Below, piece by piece: positions 1-37,329 of a stretch of 58,765 nt of DNA; positions within the stretch are counted from its first letter, which is position 1; each line of letters starts with the position of its first letter. The DNA is from a phage. The stretch lies in the sequence record PX530564.1, one strand, 5' to 3'. Both the position numbers and the translations under genes were made by a program. The notes beneath the pieces were generated by a model. The model had not been told where the DNA came from. It did no database searches and saw only the letters and a program-made list of their open reading frames with translations.

Positions 1-78
1 CAAGTAGCACTCGTAGTAGTCGGTGCTTGTTGCCTAGCGGCAGCCTGTGCTTGCGTGTGGTGCTTCGTCAATTGTTAA
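1..78 (+). CDS. 3' end of a small Cys-rich hydrophobic protein, partial (runs off window start); possibly the gene 1.4 equivalent
   Basis: Open frame from position 1 (..ALVVVGACCLAAACACVWCFVNC) ending TAA 76-78 at the phi1.5 promoter; no start codon inside window. Confidence 0.3.
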   Translation, partial: QVALVVVGACCLAAACACVWCFVNC

Positions 79-98
79 TACGACTCACTAAAGGAGGT
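76..98 (+). promoter_or_regulatory. T7 RNAP class II promoter (phi1.5-like)
   Basis: TAATACGACTCACTAAAGGAGGT, one mismatch to T7 consensus; directly upstream of gene 1.5. Confidence 0.85.
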
Positions 99-6081: not shown

Positions 6082-8196
6082 ATGATCGTTTCTGACATCG
6101 AAGCTAACGCCCTCTTAGAGAGCGTCACTAAGTTCCACTGCGGGGTTATCTACGACTACTCCACCGCTGAGTACGTAAGCTACCGTCCGAGTGACTTCGG
6201 TGCGTATCTGGATGCGCTGGAAGCCGAGGTTGCACGAGGCGGTCTTATTGTGTTCCACAACGGTCACAAGTATGACGTTCCTGCATTGACCAAACTGGCT
6301 AAGTTACAGTTGAACCGAGAGTTCCACATTCCTCGTGAGAACTGTATCGACACCCTTGTGCTATCACGTTTGATTCACTCGAACCTCAAAGACACCGATA
6401 TGGGTCTTCTGCGTTCCGGTAAGTTGCCCGGAAAACGCTTTGGGTCTCACGCTTTGGAGGCGTGGGGTTATCGCTTAGGTGAAATGAAAGGTGAATACAA
6501 AGACGACTTTAAGCGGATGCTTGAAGAGCAGGGTGAAGAATACGTTGACGGAATGGAATGGTGGAACTTCAACGAAGAGATGATGGCCTATAACGTTCAG
6601 GACGTTGTGGTCACTAAGGCTCTCCTTGAGAAGCTACTCTCTGACAAACATTACTTTCCTCCTGAGATTGACTTTACGGACGTAGGATACACTACTTTCT
6701 GGTCAGAATCCCTTGAGGCCGTTGACGTTGAACATCGTGCTGCATGGTTACTAGCCAAACAGGAGCGTAATGGGTTCCCGTTTGACACGAAAGCAATCGA
6801 AGAGTTGTACGTAGAGTTAGCTGCTCGACGCTCTGAGTTGCTGCGTAAATTGACCGAAACGTTCGGTTCGTGGTATCAACCTAAAGGCGGCACTGAAATG
6901 TTCTGCCATCCGAGGACTGGTAAACCACTTCCTAAGTATCCTCGCATTAAGACACCTAAAGTTGGTGGCATCTTTAAGAAGCCCAAGAACAAGGCACAGC
7001 GAGAAGGTCGTGAGCCTTGCGAACTGGATACCCGTGAGTACGTTGCTGGTGCTCCTTATACTCCGGTCGAGCACGTAGTGTTTAACCCTTCGTCTCGTGA
7101 CCACATTCAGAAGAAACTCCAAGAGGCTGGATGGGTCCCGACTAAGTTCACCGATAAGGGTGCTCCTGTGGTGGACGATGAGGTACTCGAAGGAGTACGT
7201 GTAGATGACCCTGAGAAGCAAGCTGCTATCGACCTCATTAAAGAGTACTTGATGATTCAGAAGAGAATCGGACAGTCTGCTGAGGGTGATAAGGCTTGGC
7301 TTCGTTACGTTGCTGAGGACGGTAAAATTCATGGTTCTGTTAATCCCAACGGCGCTGTTACTGGTCGCGCTACTCACGCTTTCCCTAACCTCGCACAGAT
7401 ACCCGGTGTCCGTTCTCCTTATGGTGAGCAGTGCCGCGCTGCTTTTGGCGCTGAACATCACCTAGATGGTGTTACTGGTGAGCCTTGGGTTCAGGCTGGT
7501 ATCGATGCGTCCGGTCTGGAGCTACGCTGCTTGGCACATTTCATGGCTCGCTTTGATTACGGTGAGTACGCTAGAGAGATTCTTCATGGCGACATCCACA
7601 CTAAGAACCAGCTAGCTGCCGAATTACCTACCCGTGATAACGCCAAGACGTTCATCTATGGGTTCCTCTATGGCGCTGGTGATGAGAAGATTGGACAGAT
7701 TGTTGGTGCTGGTAAAGAGCGCGGTAAGGAACTCAAGAAGAAATTCCTTGAGAACACCCCAGCGATTGCTGCACTCCGCGAATCTATCCAACAGACACTT
7801 GTCGAGTCCTCTCAGTGGGTCGCTGGTGAGCAACGAGTCAAATGGAAACGCCGCTGGATTAAAGGTCTGGATGGTCGTAAAGTACACGTTCGTAGTCCGC
7901 ACGCTGCGTTGAATACCCTCCTGCAATCTGCTGGTGCTCTCATCTGCAAACTGTGGATTATCAAGACAGAAGAGATGCTCGTAGAGAAAGGCTTGAAGCA
8001 TGGCTGGGATGGGGACTTTGCGTACATGGCGTGGGTACACGATGAAATCCAAGTAGGTTGCCGTACCGAAGAGATTGCTCAGGTGGTAATTGAGACCGCA
8101 CAAGAAGCAATGCGCTGGGTTGGAGACCACTGGAACTTCCGGTGTCTTCTGGATACCGAAGGTAAGATGGGTCCTAACTGGGCCGTATGTCACTAA
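6082..8196 (+). CDS. 5: gene 5 DNA polymerase (704 aa, family A with 3'-5' exonuclease and thioredoxin-binding region)
   Basis: ORF track; [26 protein letters not shown].. and polymerase motifs ..[13 protein letters not shown].., ..WVHDEIQ.. Confidence 0.97.
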   Translation: MIVSDIEANALLESVTKFHCGVIYDYSTAEYVSYRPSDFGAYLDALEAEVARGGLIVFHNGHKYDVPALTKLAKLQLNREFHIPRENCIDTLVLSRLIHSNLKDTDMGLLRSGKLPGKRFGSHALEAWGYRLGEMKGEYKDDFKRMLEEQGEEYVDGMEWWNFNEEMMAYNVQDVVVTKALLEKLLSDKHYFPPEIDFTDVGYTTFWSESLEAVDVEHRAAWLLAKQERNGFPFDTKAIEELYVELAARRSELLRKLTETFGSWYQPKGGTEMFCHPRTGKPLPKYPRIKTPKVGGIFKKPKNKAQREGREPCELDTREYVAGAPYTPVEHVVFNPSSRDHIQKKLQEAGWVPTKFTDKGAPVVDDEVLEGVRVDDPEKQAAIDLIKEYLMIQKRIGQSAEGDKAWLRYVAEDGKIHGSVNPNGAVTGRATHAFPNLAQIPGVRSPYGEQCRAAFGAEHHLDGVTGEPWVQAGIDASGLELRCLAHFMARFDYGEYAREILHGDIHTKNQLAAELPTRDNAKTFIYGFLYGAGDEKIGQIVGAGKERGKELKKKFLENTPAIAALRESIQQTLVESSQWVAGEQRVKWKRRWIKGLDGRKVHVRSPHAALNTLLQSAGALICKLWIIKTEEMLVEKGLKHGWDGDFAYMAWVHDEIQVGCRTEEIAQVVIETAQEAMRWVGDHWNFRCLLDTEGKMGPNWAVCH

Positions 8197-8213
8197 TTCT
8201 ATAGGAGGACCTT

Positions 8214-8441
8214 ATGGCACGGCGCTATAGGATTCGCGAAGTTCGAATGGCTACAGGCGAGACTTTATACTACCCACAGTTCCGTCATGCGTGGCTACCA
8301 TTCTGGTTCCACTTTAAGGGCTACACAGTAGAACGCAGGGTGTCATTCACTTATTATGCCGAAGCATTGGGGTTCATCAATGAATGTAAACTAAATGATG
8401 AACCTGAGGAACGGAATGTTATCAGAAACCACTATCTTTAA
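8214..8441 (+). CDS. hypothetical protein (75 aa), block-A-specific insertion between gene 5 and gene 5.5
   Basis: ORF track; AGGAGG RBS 8 nt upstream of ATG; no equivalent in block D where gene 5 abuts 5.5 directly; no recognisable motif. Confidence 0.5.
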   Translation: MARRYRIREVRMATGETLYYPQFRHAWLPFWFHFKGYTVERRVSFTYYAEALGFINECKLNDEPEERNVIRNHYL

Positions 8442-8454
8442 AGGAGAAATCATT

Positions 8455-8754
8455 ATGGCTATGACCAAGAAATTTAAAGTGTCCTTTGACGTTACCGCTA
8501 AGATGCCGTCTGACGTTCAGGCAATCATCGAGAAAGACATGCTGCACTTGTGTAAGCAGGTTGGCTCCGGTGCTATTGTCCCAGATGGTAAGCAGAAGGA
8601 AATGATTGTCCAGTTCCTGACACACGGTATGGAAGGCGTGATGACGTTCGTAGTGCGTACAGCGTTTCGTGAGGCTGTCAAGGACATGCACGAAGAGTAT
8701 TCCGATAAGGACTGCTTCAAGCTATCTCCTGCAACTGTACGGGAGGTGTTCTAA
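8455..8754 (+). CDS. 5.5: gene 5.5 protein (99 aa)
   Basis: ATG 8455 with AAGGAG RBS inside ORF 8395..8754; MAMTKKFKVSFDVTAKMPSDVQAIIEKDMLHLCKQ.. Confidence 0.85.
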   Translation: MAMTKKFKVSFDVTAKMPSDVQAIIEKDMLHLCKQVGSGAIVPDGKQKEMIVQFLTHGMEGVMTFVVRTAFREAVKDMHEEYSDKDCFKLSPATVREVF

Positions 8755-8963
8755 TGTCTGACTACCTGAAAGTACTGCAAGCAATCAAAGGTTGCCCTAA
8801 GACTTTCCAGTCCAACTATGTACGGAACAATGCGAGCCTCGTAGCGGAGGCCGCTTCCCGTGGTCACATCTCATGCCTGACTACGAGTGGACGTAACGGT
8901 GGAGCTTGGGAAATTACCGCTTCCGGTACTCGCTTTCTGAAACGAATGGGAGGATGTGTCTAA
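8754..8963 (+). CDS. 5.7: gene 5.7 protein (69 aa)
   Basis: ORF track; start overlaps 5.5 stop. Confidence 0.8.
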   Translation: MSDYLKVLQAIKGCPKTFQSNYVRNNASLVAEAASRGHISCLTTSGRNGGAWEITASGTRFLKRMGGCV

Positions 8964-27961: not shown

Positions 27962-28009
27962 ATGTTGTCTTTAGATTTTAACAACGAGTTAGTCAAGGCT
28001 ACCTAAAGT
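27962..28009 (+). pseudogene. 17.5: 5' fragment of gene 17.5 (holin), 13 codons, truncated at junction with terminal-repeat sequence
   Basis: ATG 27962, MLSLDFNNELVKA matches the start of the intact holin at 55254, then runs into repeat sequence and stops at TAA 28007-28009. Confidence 0.6.
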
Positions 28010-34516: not shown

Positions 34517-34774
34517 ATGGGACGTTTATACAGTGGGAACTTGAATGACTTCAAGGATGCTTGCAACAGGCTCTACCAGTTAGACTTTGCTGTTATTTGT
34601 GATGAATGGCATGATGCTTACAAACGCCTTGCGTGTATACGTCTACGCGTAGAGGACAGGGCTGGAAATCTGATTGATACCAATACGTTCTGTCACCACG
34701 ATGAAGACGTCTTGTACAATACGTGTACTGACTGGCTGAACCGTATGTACGACCAGTTGAAGGACTGGAAGTAA
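34517..34774 (+). CDS. 1.2: gene 1.2 protein (85 aa; dGTPase inhibitor in T7)
   Basis: ATG 34517 inside ORF 34478..34774; MGRLYSGNLNDFKDACNRLYQLDFAVICDEWHDAYKR.. Confidence 0.85.
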   Translation: MGRLYSGNLNDFKDACNRLYQLDFAVICDEWHDAYKRLACIRLRVEDRAGNLIDTNTFCHHDEDVLYNTCTDWLNRMYDQLKDWK

Positions 34775-34794
34775 TACGACTCAGTATAGGGACA
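34772..34794 (+). promoter_or_regulatory. T7 RNAP promoter phi1.3-like
   Basis: TAATACGACTCAGTATAGGGACA overlapping 1.2 stop. Confidence 0.75.
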
Positions 34795-34830
34795 ATGCTT
34801 AAGGTCGCTCATTGAGTGGCCTTAGTCATT
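34795..34830 (+). promoter_or_regulatory. RNase III processing hairpin (R1.3-like)
   Basis: AATGCTTAAGGTCGCTCATTGAGTGGCCTTAGTCATT. Confidence 0.4.
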
Positions 34831-34852
34831 TAACCAATAGGAGATAAACATT

Positions 34853-35878
34853 ATGATGAACATTAAGACCAACCCATTCAAAGCCGTGTCTTTCATAGAG
34901 TCTGCCATTAAGAAAGCTCTGGATAACGCTGGGTATCTTATTGCTGACATTAAGTACGATGGTGTGCGTGGTAACATCTGCGTAGACAATACCGCTAACT
35001 GCTGCTGGCTCTCTCGTGTATCCAAACCGATTCCGGCACTGTCTTACCTTAATGGGTTCGACGCACGTTGGCAGCGTCTACTAAAGGATGACCGTTGCTT
35101 CTACCCTGATGGCTTCATGCTGGATTGCGAACTTATGGTCAAGGGAGTGGACTTCAACACTGGCTCCGGCCTTCTGCGGACCAAGTGGCTCAACAAGAAG
35201 AACATGCAGTTCGATATTGGAGGTCCGTATGAATCGTGGGACGTGAGCCTGAAGGGACTTCCTTTCGGTATTGACCCGAACTTACTAACAGTTAAACTCT
35301 ACGCTATCCTTCCGTACCACATTGTGGAATCTGGGGAAGACTGTGATGTCATGACGTTGCTCATGCAGGAACACGTTAAGAACATGCTGCCTCTGCTACA
35401 GGAATACTTTCCTGAAATCGAATGGCAAGCGGCTGAGTCTTACGAGGTTTACGACATGGTAGAACTACAGCAACTGTACGAGAAGAAGCGTGAAGAAGGG
35501 CATGAGGGTCTCATTGTGAAAGACCCGATGTGCATCTACAAGCGCGGTAAGAAGTCCGGCTGGTGGAAACTTAAGCCTCTTGAGGAAGCTGACGGTATCA
35601 TTCAAGGTGTAAACTGGGGAACCGAAGGGCTTGCTAACGAAGGTAAGGTAATTGGATTCAAGGTGCTTCTTGAGACTGGTCGTCTTGTGGATGCCAATAA
35701 CATCTCTCGCGCCTTAATGGATGAATTTACAGCTAACGTTAAAGAACATGGCGAGGACTATTATAATGGCTGGGCTTGCCAGATTGGATTTATGGAGGAA
35801 ACACCAGATGGCTCATTGCGTCACCCGTCCTTCACCTGCTTCCGAGGAACTGAGGACAATCCGAAAGAGAAAGTATAA
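34853..35878 (+). CDS. 1.3: gene 1.3 ATP-dependent DNA ligase (341 aa)
   Basis: ORF track; adenylation-site motif ..IADIKYDGVRG.. and C-terminus ..ETPDGSLRHPSFTCFRGTEDNPKEKV. Confidence 0.92.
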   Translation: MMNIKTNPFKAVSFIESAIKKALDNAGYLIADIKYDGVRGNICVDNTANCCWLSRVSKPIPALSYLNGFDARWQRLLKDDRCFYPDGFMLDCELMVKGVDFNTGSGLLRTKWLNKKNMQFDIGGPYESWDVSLKGLPFGIDPNLLTVKLYAILPYHIVESGEDCDVMTLLMQEHVKNMLPLLQEYFPEIEWQAAESYEVYDMVELQQLYEKKREEGHEGLIVKDPMCIYKRGKKSGWWKLKPLEEADGIIQGVNWGTEGLANEGKVIGFKVLLETGRLVDANNISRALMDEFTANVKEHGEDYYNGWACQIGFMEETPDGSLRHPSFTCFRGTEDNPKEKV

Positions 35879-36278
35879 GTATAACCCTGCGGCTCCTTCG
35901 GGAGTCATTTCTGCCTCTGGTAAACCCATAGGGTACAAGCGGAAAGATGGGTATTGGGTTCTTTCTTATGGAGGAAAGCAGTTACTTGCACACAGGGTGG
36001 TCTGGATGCTTAACTTCGGTGCAATACCCGATGGAATGGTGATAGACCACATTAACAGAAACCCTAGCGACAACCGCATAGAGAATCTTCGAGTAGTAAC
36101 TCAATCAGCTAACCTAAGGAATGTAGGCGTCCGGTCTCACTGTAGGAGTGGAGAGAAGTTTATCTCCCTTGATGTGAGAACCGGACGTTTTTCCGTTCGT
36201 ATCAGGAGAAAATCCTATGGAACATATGGTACTCTCGAAGAGGCTATAGCTGTGCGCGATGCTAATACGACTCACTAA
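35808..36278 (+). CDS. HNH homing-endonuclease-like protein (about 156 aa) between ligase and gene 1.5
   Basis: ATG 35808 with GGAGGA RBS, inside ORF 35721..36278; motif ..GMVIDHINRNPSDNRIENLRVVTQSAN..; overlaps ligase 3' end by 71 nt; stop is the TAA of the phi1.5 promoter. Confidence 0.7.
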   Translation: MAHCVTRPSPASEELRTIRKRKYKYNPAAPSGVISASGKPIGYKRKDGYWVLSYGGKQLLAHRVVWMLNFGAIPDGMVIDHINRNPSDNRIENLRVVTQSANLRNVGVRSHCRSGEKFISLDVRTGRFSVRIRRKSYGTYGTLEEAIAVRDANTTH

Positions 36279-36285
36279 AGGAGGT
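36263..36285 (+). promoter_or_regulatory. T7 RNAP promoter phi1.5-like (block B copy)
   Basis: TAATACGACTCACTAAAGGAGGT. Confidence 0.85.
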
Positions 36286-36292
36286 ACACATC

Positions 36293-36382
36293 ATGATGTA
36301 CTTAATGCCATTACTCATTGTCATCATAGGATGCCTTGCGCTCCACTGTAGCGATGACGATATGCCAGATGGTCATGCTTAA
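36293..36382 (+). CDS. 1.5: gene 1.5 small membrane protein (29 aa), block B copy
   Basis: ATG 36293, MMYLMPLLIVIIGCLALHCSDDDMPDGHA, TAA 36380-36382. Confidence 0.65.
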   Translation: MMYLMPLLIVIIGCLALHCSDDDMPDGHA

Positions 36383-36402
36383 TACGACTCACTAAAGGAG
36401 AC
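36380..36402 (+). promoter_or_regulatory. T7 RNAP promoter phi1.6-like (block B copy)
   Basis: TAATACGACTCACTAAAGGAGAC. Confidence 0.85.
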
Positions 36403-36407
36403 ACTAT

Positions 36408-36668
36408 ATGTTTCGACTTCATTACAACAAAAGCATTAAGAATTTCACGGTTCGCCGTGCTGACCGTTCAATCGTATGTGCGAGCGAGCGCCGAGCTAAG
36501 TTACCTCTTATTGGTAACACAGTTCCTTTGGCACCGAGCGTCCACATCATTATCACCCGTGGTGACTTTGAGAAAGCAGTAGATAAGAAACGTCCGGTTC
36601 TTAGCGTGGCAGTGACCCGCTTCCCGTTCGTCCGTCTGTTACTCAAACGTATCAAGGAGGTGTTCTAA
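36408..36668 (+). CDS. 1.6: gene 1.6 protein (86 aa), block B copy
   Basis: ORF track; 5 aa differences from the copy at 231..491. Confidence 0.85.
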
Positions 36669-36995
36669 TGACTATTAACCATAAAGAATATTGTCGCTCC
36701 GTACTTAGCTTTGGGTCGTGCGATTGTGGTGCCACTACGAACCACGTGTCCAACAAACAACAAGACGTAGACGGTGTTCGTACTCCGAGCCATTACATGC
36801 TGTTTGACGACATTGAGGCTATTGAAGTGATTGCCCGTTCGATGACCAGTGAGCAGTTCAAAGGGTACTGCTTCGGGAACGTACTTAAATATCGCCTACG
36901 TGCTGGTAAGAAATCCGAACTGGCTTACTTAGAGAAGGACATGGCGAAAGCTGAGTTCTACGGTGAACTGTACGAGAAACATAAGGATAAGTGCT

Positions 36996-37009
<14 letters not shown>
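36668..37009 (+). CDS. 1.7: gene 1.7 protein, short allele (113 aa)
   Basis: ORF track; conserved C-terminal half, N-terminal Cys-rich region largely absent relative to the 213-aa block A allele. Confidence 0.8.

Positions 37010-37329
<320 letters not shown>

What the first reader, a model, noticed from the sequence alone, without database searches (positions are those of the whole stretch)
35808..36278. HNH homing endonuclease between ligase and gene 1.5, overlapping the ligase 3' end and the phi1.5 promoter
The reading frame has a canonical HNH core (VIDHINRNPSDNRIENLRVV) and a strong RBS. It starts 71 nt inside the ligase gene and its stop codon is the TAA inside the promoter -10 region (CACTAAAGG). 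Block A has unrelated sequence at this position.
Basis: partly seen in the sequence, partly recalled or inferred. Interest (0 to 1): 0.45.

Follow-up and report, generated by a model that had tools for sequence, protein, structure and literature searches.

The report
Known HNH homing endonuclease, gene 1.45

Summary
Window 35808-36278 (+) encodes a 156-aa protein with a strong Pfam HNH_3 match (E=1.2e-20). It starts at an ATG 71 nt inside the ligase gene, 8 nt after GGAGGA. Its TAA stop lies at positions -4 to -2 of the T7-type phi1.5 promoter.

The window from 28001 onward is Escherichia phage vB_EcoM_CQ615, whose record already annotates a truncated homing endonuclease here. The gene is the orthologue (82% identity) of gene 1.45 of Yersinia phage phiYeO3-12. 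That curated record shows the same 71-nt ligase overlap, a putative early terminator inside the gene, and the same promoter overlap.

New here:
- Profile and fold evidence for an I-HmuI-like HNH domain plus an AP2-like DNA-binding domain.
- Only 12 of 90 distinct ligase 3' ends carry the gene.
- CQ615 holds a sharp ~0.7-kb imported block (HNH plus the last ~300 nt of ligase) in an HNH-less backbone.
- Internally deleted remnants exist in KP32-like phages.
- dN/dS is 0.08-0.20.
- The hairpin's synonymous sites are unusually conserved (p~5e-4).

Verdict: a free-standing homing endonuclease gene, already known, of low interest. Homing and terminator activity are inferred, not shown.

The parts
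34853..35878 (+). DNA ligase gene (T7 gene 1.3 homologue), 341 aa. Its last 71 nt are shared with the HNH gene in another frame.
   Evidence: ORF list; Pfam DNA_ligase_A_M and DNA_ligase_C; annotated as DNA ligase in PQ010280.
35560..36262 (+). Imported mosaic block of about 0.7 kb: the last ~300 nt of ligase plus the HNH gene. The left edge lies between 35540 and 35578. The right edge is exactly at promoter position -17.
   Evidence: Against HNH-less C5/N30 there are 5 mismatches in 34853-35577, then 69 in 35578-35875. Against 04922B there are no mismatches from 36263 to 36372. Against the HNH carrier JeanTinguely identity is about 97% over 35344-36262.
35794..35799 (+). Shine-Dalgarno GGAGGA, 8 nt before the HNH start. 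It is made of ligase codons M-E-E.
   Evidence: Sequence. GGAGG is present at this place in all 12 carriers.
35808..36278 (+). HNH homing endonuclease gene, orthologue of phiYeO3-12 gene 1.45, 156 aa plus stop.
   Evidence: Pfam HNH_3 E=1.2e-20; PHROG 99 E=2e-42; 82% identical to phiYeO3-12 gp1.45 with the same architecture; dN/dS 0.08-0.20; AlphaFold2 model with mean pLDDT 90.8.
35808..35878 (+). 71-nt dual-frame overlap. It encodes the ligase C-terminus and HNH residues 1-24, including a predicted N-terminal helix (residues 10-21, PASEELRTIRKR).
   Evidence: ATG plus open frame is found in 12/12 carriers against 30/78 non-carriers. No measurable extra constraint on ligase synonymous sites.
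35891..35915 (+). Hairpin GGCTCC-TTCG-GGAGTC followed by ATTTCTGCC, inside the HNH frame (it encodes A-P-S-G-V-I-S-A). It corresponds to the 'putative early terminator TE' annotated inside phiYeO3-12 gene 1.45. In CQ615 the A at 35907 (G in the relatives) leaves a stem of 6 bp where relatives have 8.
   Evidence: Folds; phiYeO3-12 annotation; stem synonymous sites invariant in 4 of 5 codons against 7 of 67 elsewhere, p=5.5e-4; modest similarity to T7-type TE, p about 0.002.
35985..36119 (+). HNH_3 catalytic domain (residues 60-104) with D80, H81, N93 and N105 invariant among homologues.
   Evidence: I-HmuI 1u3e match.
36156..36269 (+). C-terminal AP2-like DNA-binding domain (about residues 117-154: three strands and a helix).
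   Evidence: A profile built from the alignment matches plant AP2/ERF structures, E=2.5e-6 to 6e-3. Many distant homologues carry PF00847. Secondary structure E119-122, E127-132, E135-140, H143-154. The single sequence is below the Pfam cutoff (13.6 against 33.3 bits).
36263..36285 (+). T7-type class II promoter phi1.5 (TAATACGACTCACTAAAGGAGGT). The HNH codons N-T-T-H-stop are encoded by promoter positions -16 to -2.
   Evidence: Sequence; identical to the promoter annotated as phi1.5 in 13a, Yersinia phage R and T7.
36293..36382 (+). Gene 1.5 (29 aa), downstream neighbour. Its TAA stop is the first three bases of promoter phi1.6 (36380-36402).
1..98 (+). Block A counterpart of the same slot: the 3' end of a gene 1.4 homologue (1-78) running into a phi1.5 promoter (76-98).

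Best explanation
Window 35808-36278 is an intact, functional free-standing homing endonuclease gene of the HNH (His-Me finger) type with an AP2-like C-terminal DNA-binding domain. It is the orthologue of gene 1.45 of Yersinia phage phiYeO3-12. It sits in the variable slot between the ligase gene and promoter phi1.5 of a T7-like phage (Escherichia phage vB_EcoM_CQ615).

Shown here:
- The protein family, the intact catalytic residues and purifying selection.
- The patchy distribution among relatives.
- A ~0.7-kb imported block carrying the gene plus the ligase 3' end in an otherwise HNH-less backbone.
- Decayed copies in other phages.
- Translation can only start at the ligase-internal ATG, because that is the only start codon shared by all carriers upstream of the conserved N-terminal region.

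Inferred from the behaviour of characterised free-standing phage homing endonucleases such as T4 Seg/Mob and I-HmuI:
- During mixed infection the enzyme nicks or cuts the ligase/phi1.5 region of a phage that lacks the gene.
- Recombinational repair from the carrier genome copies the gene and a variable length of the ligase 3' end into the recipient.
- The carrier's own divergent ligase 3' end makes it immune.

Also inferred: the gene has no promoter of its own, so it is transcribed by read-through of phage RNA polymerase from phi1.3 and upstream promoters. The conserved hairpin 13 nt after the ligase stop, if it acts as the early terminator TE as annotated in phiYeO3-12, would stop host-polymerase transcripts after about 35 codons. 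That would restrict full-length mRNA to the middle period, when phage DNA replicates and recombines.
For: - Family: Pfam HNH_3 E=1.2e-20; PHROG 99 E=2e-42; profile match to I-HmuI 1u3e E=6e-9 and to AP2/ERF domains E=2.5e-6; confident model, pLDDT 90.8, whose only significant PDB fold match is I-HmuI. D80, H81, N89, N93 and N105 are invariant in 60 homologues.
- Identity: 100% DNA match to CQ615, which annotates a homing endonuclease here. 82% protein identity to phiYeO3-12 gp1.45, with the same 71-nt overlap, internal TE and promoter overlap.
- Mobility: 12 of 90 distinct ligase 3' ends carry it, spread over four genera. Mosaic breakpoints lie at about 35560 and 36262/36263. Internal-deletion remnants L112/L118 exist.
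- Function retained: dN/dS 0.08-0.20.
- Start codon: ATG plus open frame in 12/12 carriers against 30/78 non-carriers, Fisher p=4e-5. In four carriers the frame is closed 2 codons upstream of it. Family N-termini align to the overlap-encoded segment, which is modelled as a helix.
- Hairpin: stem synonymous sites conserved, p=5.5e-4.
- Family precedent: HNH plus AP2 is an established homing endonuclease family (PMC10448857, citing Magnani et al. 2004).
Against: - No cleavage, homing or termination activity was or could be tested here, and I found no paper reporting biochemistry of gp1.45.
- The mosaic block shows recombination, not that the nuclease caused it.
- The ligase synonymous sites in the overlap are not detectably more constrained in carriers (ratio 0.95 against 0.97). 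So the first ~20 residues may matter little.
- The Fisher test is not corrected for shared ancestry.
- In CQ615 itself the hairpin is weakened to 6 bp and is not significantly stable (z=-1.3).
- RNAalifold gives no covariation support.
- AP2 is below Pfam's cutoff for the single sequence.
Confidence: 0.85

Rival explanations
1. The real gene is the short 90-aa ORF annotated in the CQ615 GenBank record (window 36006-36278, effectively starting at the ATG for M66 in VVWMLNF). On this reading the ligase overlap is an accident of an open frame.
For: The GenBank record PQ010280 annotates 8006-8278 only, and Yep_15 is annotated the same way. 90-aa versions exist as called proteins in the database (P0010, P0013, P0015). 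There is no measurable extra constraint on ligase synonymous sites in the overlap.
Against: - The short form would delete residues 22-65, which align with PHROG 99 and contain nearly invariant family residues G38, G42, Y49, H62 and R63. In the model these residues form two strands and the start of a helix, at pLDDT about 95.
- The upstream frame is open in all 12 carriers, with ATG and GGAGG conserved.
- Curated records (phiYeO3-12, the BASEL phages) annotate the long form.
Confidence: 0.03
2. The protein is a domesticated nuclease or DNA-binding protein that serves the phage rather than acting as a selfish homing element. Possible roles are excluding competing phages, processing DNA, or regulating the adjacent promoter phi1.5 through its AP2-like domain.
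For: - The gene is widespread and under strong purifying selection across four genera, more so than expected for a purely parasitic gene on its way to decay.
- Its 3' end is fused to the phi1.5 promoter in both T7-type and T3-type phages.
- The paper found (PMC10448857) describes nuclease genes at the boundaries of genetic exchange between phages and HEG DNA-binding domains co-opted as regulators.
Against: - Most relatives do without it (78 of 90), including the closest backbone relatives C5, N30 and 04922B.
- Deletion remnants exist.
- The gene travels with a block of flanking ligase sequence, the classic footprint of homing or marker exclusion.
- Exclusion of competitors and homing are two faces of the same activity, so this rival overlaps with the main explanation.
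Confidence: 0.1
3. The hairpin at 35891-35906 is not a transcription terminator. Its conservation could reflect something else: the nuclease's own recognition or immunity site, a translational or mRNA-stability element, or recent gene conversion of this short segment.
For: - JacobBurckhardt and PVN09 carry a diverged allele that also folds into a hairpin at this place (-19.2 kcal/mol, z=-2.25) although they retain a genuine TE downstream. So a terminator role is not needed there.
- CLB_P1 has another terminator-like hairpin after the gene.
- In CQ615 the stem is only 6 bp.
- The tail is U-poor.
Against: - The phiYeO3-12 curators annotated it as putative TE.
- The T7-type TE has the same UUCG loop and TTTCTGC tail at the same distance from the ligase stop, and the genuine T7 TE is equally U-poor.
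- NC-A has a textbook terminator at exactly this place inside the gene.
- CQ615-type carriers have no other TE.
Confidence: 0.35
4. The ORF is an inactive relic, a pseudogene on its way to loss.
For: Homing endonuclease genes commonly decay after fixation, and decayed copies of this very gene exist in KP32-like phages (L112, L118).
Against: - The ORF is full length with all invariant catalytic residues.
- dN/dS against its closest relatives is 0.17-0.20, and 0.08-0.10 against more distant ones.
- The model is confident throughout.
Confidence: 0.02

Closest known systems
Gene 1.45 of Yersinia phage phiYeO3-12 (NC_001271, product NP_052076, 'HNH endonuclease')
   Same: - Same slot, between ligase gene 1.3 and promoter phi1.5.
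- 82% protein identity over residues 1-152.
- The same ATG 71 nt inside the ligase, and the same GGCTCC-TTCG-GGAGTC hairpin, annotated there as putative TE.
- The stop codon lies inside CACTAA of the downstream phage promoter.
   Different: - The host backbone is T7-like (Teseptimavirus) rather than T3-like (Teetrevirus). The last residues are therefore encoded by a T7-type promoter (ANTTH*) instead of a T3-type one (AINPH*).
- The CQ615 stem is one base change weaker (A at 35907).
I-HmuI (PDB 1u3e), HNH homing endonuclease of Bacillus phage SPO1
   Same: The His-Me finger catalytic domain and the preceding strands match by profile (E=6e-9) and by fold (E=7e-5, 36% identity over 90 columns). 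Both are phage homing enzymes.
   Different: - From my own knowledge, I-HmuI is encoded inside a group I intron of the DNA polymerase gene and nicks one strand. This gene is free-standing.
- The C-terminal DNA-binding part differs: AP2-like here, according to the profile matches.
HNH-AP2 homing endonuclease family (Magnani et al. 2004; 'IPA-HNH' genes of Vibrio phage ICP1, PMC10448857)
   Same: N-terminal HNH plus C-terminal AP2-type DNA-binding domain. The genes are free-standing, sit next to essential genes, and lie at boundaries of genetic exchange between related phages.
   Different: This protein matches the canonical Pfam HNH_3 model strongly, whereas the ICP1 genes are too divergent for it. 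AP2 is seen here only at profile level.
T7 early terminator TE and T7 gene 1.4
   Same: They occupy the same interval, ligase stop to phi1.5. TE has the same UUCG loop, a similar stem and the same TTTCTGC tail as the hairpin inside this gene. Gene 1.4 is the alternative occupant, seen in Block A at window 1-78.
   Different: In T7 the terminator is non-coding and gene 1.4 is an unrelated small protein. Here the hairpin is part of the endonuclease reading frame, and no separate TE exists.

Membership tests
Pfam HNH_3 (PF13392) / His-Me finger endonucleases | Sequence score above the curated family threshold | tested here: met
   73.3 bits against a cutoff of 24.8, E=1.2e-20, residues 60-104 covering profile positions 2-46 of 46.
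Pfam HNH_3 (PF13392) / His-Me finger endonucleases | Catalytic motif residues present (D-H general base, metal-binding Asn residues) | tested here: met
   D80, H81, N89, N93 and N105 are invariant and N102 nearly invariant across 60 homologues.
Pfam HNH_3 (PF13392) / His-Me finger endonucleases | Beta-beta-alpha metal finger fold | tested here: met
   AlphaFold2 model with pLDDT 90.8 has strands 77-81 and 94-98 and helix 99-105. The top and only significant PDB fold match is I-HmuI 1u3e.
Pfam HNH_3 (PF13392) / His-Me finger endonucleases | Metal-dependent DNA nicking or cleavage | not testable with these tools
   Needs purified protein and DNA substrates.
HNH-AP2 homing endonucleases | C-terminal AP2-type DNA-binding domain, single sequence above the Pfam threshold | tested here: not met
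   PF00847 scores 13.6 bits against a cutoff of 33.3, E=0.088.
HNH-AP2 homing endonucleases | C-terminal AP2-type domain detectable at profile or structure level | tested here: met
   The profile of alignment A1 hits the AP2/ERF structures 7wq5 (E=2.5e-6), 5wx9 and 7et4 over profile positions 92-160. Many distant homologues carry PF00847 together with PF13392. The model has three strands and a helix at 119-154.
Free-standing homing endonuclease gene (functional class) | Patchy presence among close relatives at one fixed genomic site, not within an intron or intein | tested here: met
   12 of 90 distinct ligase 3' ends carry it, always directly after the ligase. Empty sites and an alternative occupant are documented.
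Free-standing homing endonuclease gene (functional class) | Flanking sequence transferred with the gene (co-conversion-like mosaic) | tested here: met
   Breakpoints lie at about 35560 and 36262/36263 relative to the HNH-less backbone relatives. This shows recombination, but its cause is not shown.
Free-standing homing endonuclease gene (functional class) | Degenerate copies as expected from the invasion-decay cycle | tested here: met
   L112 and L118 keep the 5' hairpin and the 3' end but lack the catalytic body, leaving 56 codons.
Free-standing homing endonuclease gene (functional class) | Site-specific cleavage of the gene-less allele and biased inheritance in crosses | not testable with these tools
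   Needs biochemistry and mixed infections. No published test was found.
Orthologue of phiYeO3-12 gene 1.45 | Same position, same start inside the ligase, high identity along the whole length | tested here: met
   82% identity over residues 1-152. The 71-nt overlap, internal hairpin and promoter overlap are shared.
Intrinsic (Rho-independent) terminator, T7 TE type | [quoted passage not shown] | tested here: inconclusive
   - The CQ615 stem is 6 bp, z=-1.3. Relatives have 8-9 bp, z=-2.2 to -2.9.
- The tail AUUUCUGC resembles T7 TE's UUUCUGC.
- The consensus scan finds nothing, but it also misses the genuine T7 TE.
- Stem synonymous sites are conserved, p=5.5e-4.
Intrinsic (Rho-independent) terminator, T7 TE type | Termination of E. 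coli RNA polymerase | not testable with these tools
   Needs in vitro transcription or 3'-end mapping.

The most novel reading that the evidence does not exclude
The hairpin embedded in the first 35 codons of gene 1.45 may be a working early terminator written inside a coding sequence. It would gate expression of the endonuclease to the phage-polymerase (middle) period. It may also share ancestry with the non-coding TE of T7 and 13a. In that case T7's classical early terminator is either what remains after loss of a homing endonuclease gene, or the sequence on which the endonuclease's N-terminus was built.

Observations consistent with this reading:
- The internal-deletion remnants L112 and L118, which leave the hairpin close to the promoter.
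- The Przondovirus empty sites that have no hairpin at all.
- The conserved synonymous sites in the stem.
Probability: 0.2. Interest if true: 0.35.

Novelty: already known. Interest (0 to 1): 0.12.

Why it matters
It matters little beyond correct annotation.
- **Prior description:** the gene, its overlap with the ligase, the internal putative terminator and the promoter overlap are all curated in the phiYeO3-12 record. Homologues are annotated in dozens of T7-, T3-, KP32- and K1F-like phages.
- **Annotation fix:** the GenBank record of CQ615, and that of Yep_15, truncates the gene to 90-95 codons. The 156-codon form starting inside the ligase is the one supported by comparison.
- **Worked example:** the locus shows a nuclease gene marking a recombination boundary in therapeutic-type coliphages. 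It would be a convenient system for testing homing, and a terminator embedded in a coding sequence, in T7-like phages.

Tried and rejected
1. **Dual-coding constraint.** I compared ligase third-position differences among identical-amino-acid codon pairs in the overlap and upstream. Carriers gave 0.369/0.391, non-carriers 0.352/0.361, ratios 0.95 against 0.97, and 35% of random non-carrier subsets were as low. No signal, so I do not claim measurable selection on the overlap-encoded residues.
2. **RNAalifold covariation on the hairpin.** The consensus was weak (-3.8 kcal/mol, covariation term +0.29), because MAFFT misplaces NC-A's extra codon. By my own loop-anchored comparison, NC-A differs from the CQ615 type at five stem pairs. 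Two of these changed on both sides and all five remain paired. This is a hand comparison of two alleles and could equally reflect replacement by recombination.
3. **Consensus terminator scan.** It found nothing in 34700-36700, but it also misses the annotated T7 TE. The negative is therefore uninformative.
4. **Homology of the hairpin to T7-type TE.** It is only modestly significant for Teseptimavirus-resident alleles (p about 0.002-0.01), and absent for CLB_P1 and for the T3-type TE. I leave it unresolved.
5. **Rfam.** Only chance-level hits, far below gathering scores.
6. **Upstream ATG at 35721 (185-aa form; KP32 is annotated in this style).** Rejected, because in MeretOppenheim, Yep_15, NC-A and PVN09 the frame is closed two codons upstream of the -71 ATG.
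7. **GTG start 35 nt inside the ligase (as annotated in NC-A and PVN09).** That codon is GAG in CQ615, so it is not available here.
8. **Literature.** The phiYeO3-12 genome paper is not held, and full-text searches found no biochemical study of gp1.45.
Full report
**1. What is in the sequence**

- The + strand carries an open frame from 35721 to 36278.
- GGAGGA at 35794-35799 lies 8 nt upstream of that ATG.
- The ligase ORF runs 34853-35878 (Pfam DNA_ligase_A_M and DNA_ligase_C), so the two genes share 35808-35878, exactly 71 nt.
- The frame ends at TAA 36276-36278. This lies within TAATACGACTCACTAAAGGAGGT (36263-36285), which is identical to the promoter annotated as phi1.5 in 13a, Yersinia phage R and T7. 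With -17 at 36263, the stop occupies positions -4 to -2. Calling this a '-10 region' is loose wording, because phage-polymerase promoters have no such element.
- The motif VIDHINRNPSDNRIENLRVV is present. The protein scores 73.3 bits on Pfam HNH_3 (cutoff 24.8, E=1.2e-20) and E=2e-42 on PHROG 99 'HNH endonuclease' over residues 22-151.

**2. Where the window comes from**

- The stretch 34800-36700 is 100% identical to Escherichia phage vB_EcoM_CQ615 (PQ010280), a Teseptimavirus, with window 28001 corresponding to record position 1.
- Window 1-28000 is a different Teseptimavirus, closest to Serratia phage Pila at 95%.
- Block A begins inside a homologue of T7 gene 1.4, whose stop is the first three bases of another phi1.5 promoter at 76-98.
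It reflects a second, alternative occupant of the same slot.

**3. It is a known gene**

- A tblastn search finds full-length matches of about 60-100% identity in some sixty phage records, with a DNA ligase annotated under nearly every match.
- In the curated record of Yersinia phage phiYeO3-12 the gene is '1.45, HNH endonuclease' (7903-8376). It overlaps ligase gene 1.3 (which ends at 7973) by 71 nt.
- That record also places a 'putative early transcriptional terminator TE' at 7986-8001 inside gene 1.45, and promoter phi1.5 (8361-8383) over its 3' end.
- The window gene is 82% identical to it. It has the same start, the same hairpin, and a stop in the same CACTAA of the promoter. Its tail is encoded by a T7-type promoter (ANTTH) rather than a T3-type one (AINPH).
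- KP32 (Przondovirus) shares the start and the hairpin. So does CLB_P1 (Kayfunavirus), whose record names it '1.45'.
- CQ615's own record annotates a 'putative homing endonuclease', but only from record position 8006 (window 36006), giving 90 aa. JeanTinguely, MeretOppenheim and JacobBurckhardt annotate the long form.

**4. The protein**

- A profile of the family matches I-HmuI (1u3e, E=6e-9) over the N-terminal two thirds. It matches plant AP2/ERF DNA-binding domains (7wq5 E=2.5e-6; 5wx9; 7et4) over the C-terminal third.
- Many distant homologues carry both PF13392 and PF00847. The single sequence is below Pfam's AP2 cutoff.
- An AlphaFold2 model built on 60 homologues has mean pLDDT 90.8. 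Its only significant PDB fold match is I-HmuI (E=7e-5).
- D80, H81, N89, N93 and N105 are invariant.
- dN/dS for residues 36-150 is 0.08-0.20 in the pairs where dS could be estimated, so the gene is maintained by selection.
- N-terminal HNH plus C-terminal AP2 is an established family of homing endonuclease genes (PMC10448857, citing Magnani et al. 2004).

**5. The start codon**

- Residues 22-65 belong to the conserved family core. Between the ligase-internal ATG and residue 63 there is no other ATG, GTG or TTG in CQ615.
- In four carriers the frame is closed two codons upstream of that ATG.
- Among 90 distinct ligase 3' ends, all 12 carriers have ATG there and an open overlap frame, against 30 of 78 non-carriers (Fisher p=4e-5, not corrected for phylogeny).
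- Both the ATG and the GGAGG are built from ligase codons (M-E-E/V ... D/N-G).
- Free-standing homologues from unrelated contexts begin M..(T)QEELKRQLxYDPETG. This aligns with the overlap-encoded SEELRTIRKRKYKYNPAAPSG, and residues 10-21 are modelled as a helix.
- Against this, ligase synonymous sites in the overlap are not detectably more constrained in carriers.
- I conclude that translation starts at 35808. Selection on the first ~20 residues is weak or undetectable with this sample.

**6. Evidence of mobility**

The alignment of the ligase-to-1.5 interval shows these states:
- Empty sites with ligase stop, TE, then promoter (13a, N30, Yersinia phage R, C5).
- Empty Przondovirus sites in which the ligase stop abuts the promoter, with no hairpin (L121, L123, L134).
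- Gene 1.4 (T7, Pila, 04922B, Block A).
- The CQ615-type 1.45 allele, which replaces everything from the ligase stop to promoter position -17.
- A diverged allele (JacobBurckhardt, PVN09; 41-45% identity) whose own stop falls where the ligase stop of the empty site is. These phages keep the genuine TE downstream.

CQ615's ligase has only 5 mismatches to the HNH-less phages C5 and N30 over 34853-35577, then 69 over 35578-35875. Identity to 04922B returns to 100% from 36263. Identity to the carrier JeanTinguely is about 97% over 35344-36262.

CQ615 therefore carries an imported block of about 0.7 kb, comprising the gene plus the last ~300 nt of the ligase. The right edge is fixed at the promoter. 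Other carriers start to resemble CQ615 closely at different points in the ligase, so the left edge appears to vary between carriers.

Two KP32-like contigs (L112, L118) retain the 5' hairpin and the 3' end but have lost the catalytic body.

Patchy distribution, linked transfer of flanking sequence and decayed copies together fit the life cycle of a homing endonuclease gene. They show recombination and loss, not that the nuclease drives them.

**7. The hairpin**

- GGCTCC-TTCG-GGAGTC (35891-35906) followed by ATTTCTGCC encodes A-P-S-G-V-I-S-A.
- In CQ615 an A at 35907 (G in the relatives) leaves 6 bp, and the fold is not significantly stable (z=-1.3). Relatives have 8 bp. NC-A has 9 bp plus TTTTTGCGTT, which the consensus scan calls a terminator.
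- The same scan misses the genuine T7 TE, so its silence on the window means nothing.
- Among ten distinct CQ615-type alleles, 4 of 5 amino-acid-invariant hairpin codons are nucleotide-invariant, against 7 of 67 elsewhere (p=5.5e-4). The one variable site lies in the loop. Synonymous sites are otherwise saturated between genera.
- The nucleotide sequence is therefore conserved beyond the needs of the protein.
- Its similarity to T7-type TE (same loop, same TTTCTGC tail, same distance from the ligase stop) is only modestly significant, and absent for some alleles. RNAalifold adds no support. Rfam has nothing.
- Whether it terminates host polymerase, and whether it is related by descent to TE, remain open.

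**8. Mechanism**

Shown: a selected, intact HNH nuclease with an AP2-like DNA-binding domain, translated from a start inside the ligase, lacking its own promoter, and residing in a recombination-bounded cassette.

Inferred from characterised free-standing phage homing endonucleases:
- The enzyme cuts or nicks the gene-less allele near the ligase/phi1.5 junction in mixed infections.
- Repair from the carrier genome copies the gene together with ligase 3' sequence.
- Divergence of the carrier's own ligase 3' end gives it immunity.

Further inferred: transcription comes by read-through from phi1.3 (34772-34794) and upstream phage promoters. If the hairpin is TE, host-polymerase transcripts end after about 35 codons, and the enzyme is made only in the middle period.

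**9. Verdict**

Novelty: already known. Interest: low. The useful by-products are these:
- A corrected start for the CQ615 and Yep_15 annotations.
- A cleanly delimited mosaic block.
- Statistical support for a conserved nucleic-acid element inside the 5' end of the gene.

Noticed in passing
window 28000/28001: The window is two partial genomes placed end to end. Block A (1-28000) is a Pila-like Teseptimavirus running from inside gene 1.4 to inside the holin gene 17.5 (MLSLDFNNELVKA... starts near 27963). From 28001 the window is CQ615 record position 1 onward, starting in the left terminal repeat region.
   Followed up: partly
window 1-98: Block A carries a homologue of T7 gene 1.4 (the 3' end, ...VWCFVNC*). 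Its TAA stop (76-78) is the first three bases of a phi1.5 promoter (76-98). This is the alternative occupant of the slot that holds the HNH gene in Block B.
   Followed up: yes
window 36006-36278 (PQ010280 8006-8278): The GenBank record of CQ615 annotates the endonuclease from an internal ATG (90 aa), which cuts off conserved residues 22-65. Yep_15 (PV596791) is truncated in the same way. The phage name carries the myovirus tag 'vB_EcoM', although its taxonomy line and genome are those of a T7-like phage (Teseptimavirus).
   Followed up: yes
L112 and L118 (IMG/VR KP32-like contigs), just after the ligase stop: These are internal-deletion remnants of gene 1.45. A 56-codon ORF keeps the hairpin-encoding 5' end and the ...YGTIAEAIAVRDAVIN* 3' end, and the whole HNH body is gone. 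PHROG 34032 ('endonuclease', 70 positions) matches residues 1-37 of the window protein and may be a family of such short remnants.
   Followed up: partly
L005 (Yersinia phage vB_Yep_15), 3' end of the HNH gene: A one-base difference just before the promoter changes the frame. The HNH ORF reads through the promoter and ends in ATGA, overlapping the start of gene 1.5. The promoter's first base is also altered (TCAATACG...).
   Followed up: no
L007 (phage C5), L002 and L009 (JeanTinguely, JacobBurckhardt), between gene 1.5 and promoter phi1.6: There is further variable cargo in the next intergenic slot. C5 has about 200 nt of extra coding-looking sequence. The two BASEL phages have a second, gene-1.5-like small ORF. 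The whole 1.3-1.7 region looks like a series of insertion hot spots bounded by phage promoters.
   Followed up: no
window 36668-37009 and 36963-37136: The gene 1.7 homologue (nucleotide kinase in T7; T7 gene 1.7 spans 8166-8756, about 196 codons) is only 113 aa here and is followed by a separate 57-aa ORF. Relatives show various lengths (MeretOppenheim 264 nt, NC-A 315 nt). Yersinia phage R annotates a 'gene 1.75 putative HNH endonuclease' right after 1.7, so another nuclease-associated rearrangement site may lie here.
   Followed up: no
window 36408-36668: Gene 1.6 matches Pfam PF06726 'Bladder cancer-related protein BC10' (E=7e-23). RefSeq accordingly labels the phage proteins 'BC10 family protein'. 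This is an odd family name for a T7 class II protein of unknown function.
   Followed up: no
L012 (T7) position 1189: The consensus terminator scan does not detect T7's annotated early terminator TE, because its tail (TTTCTGCG) has only 4 T in 8. Negative results of that scan in T7-like genomes should not be read as absence of terminators.
   Followed up: yes
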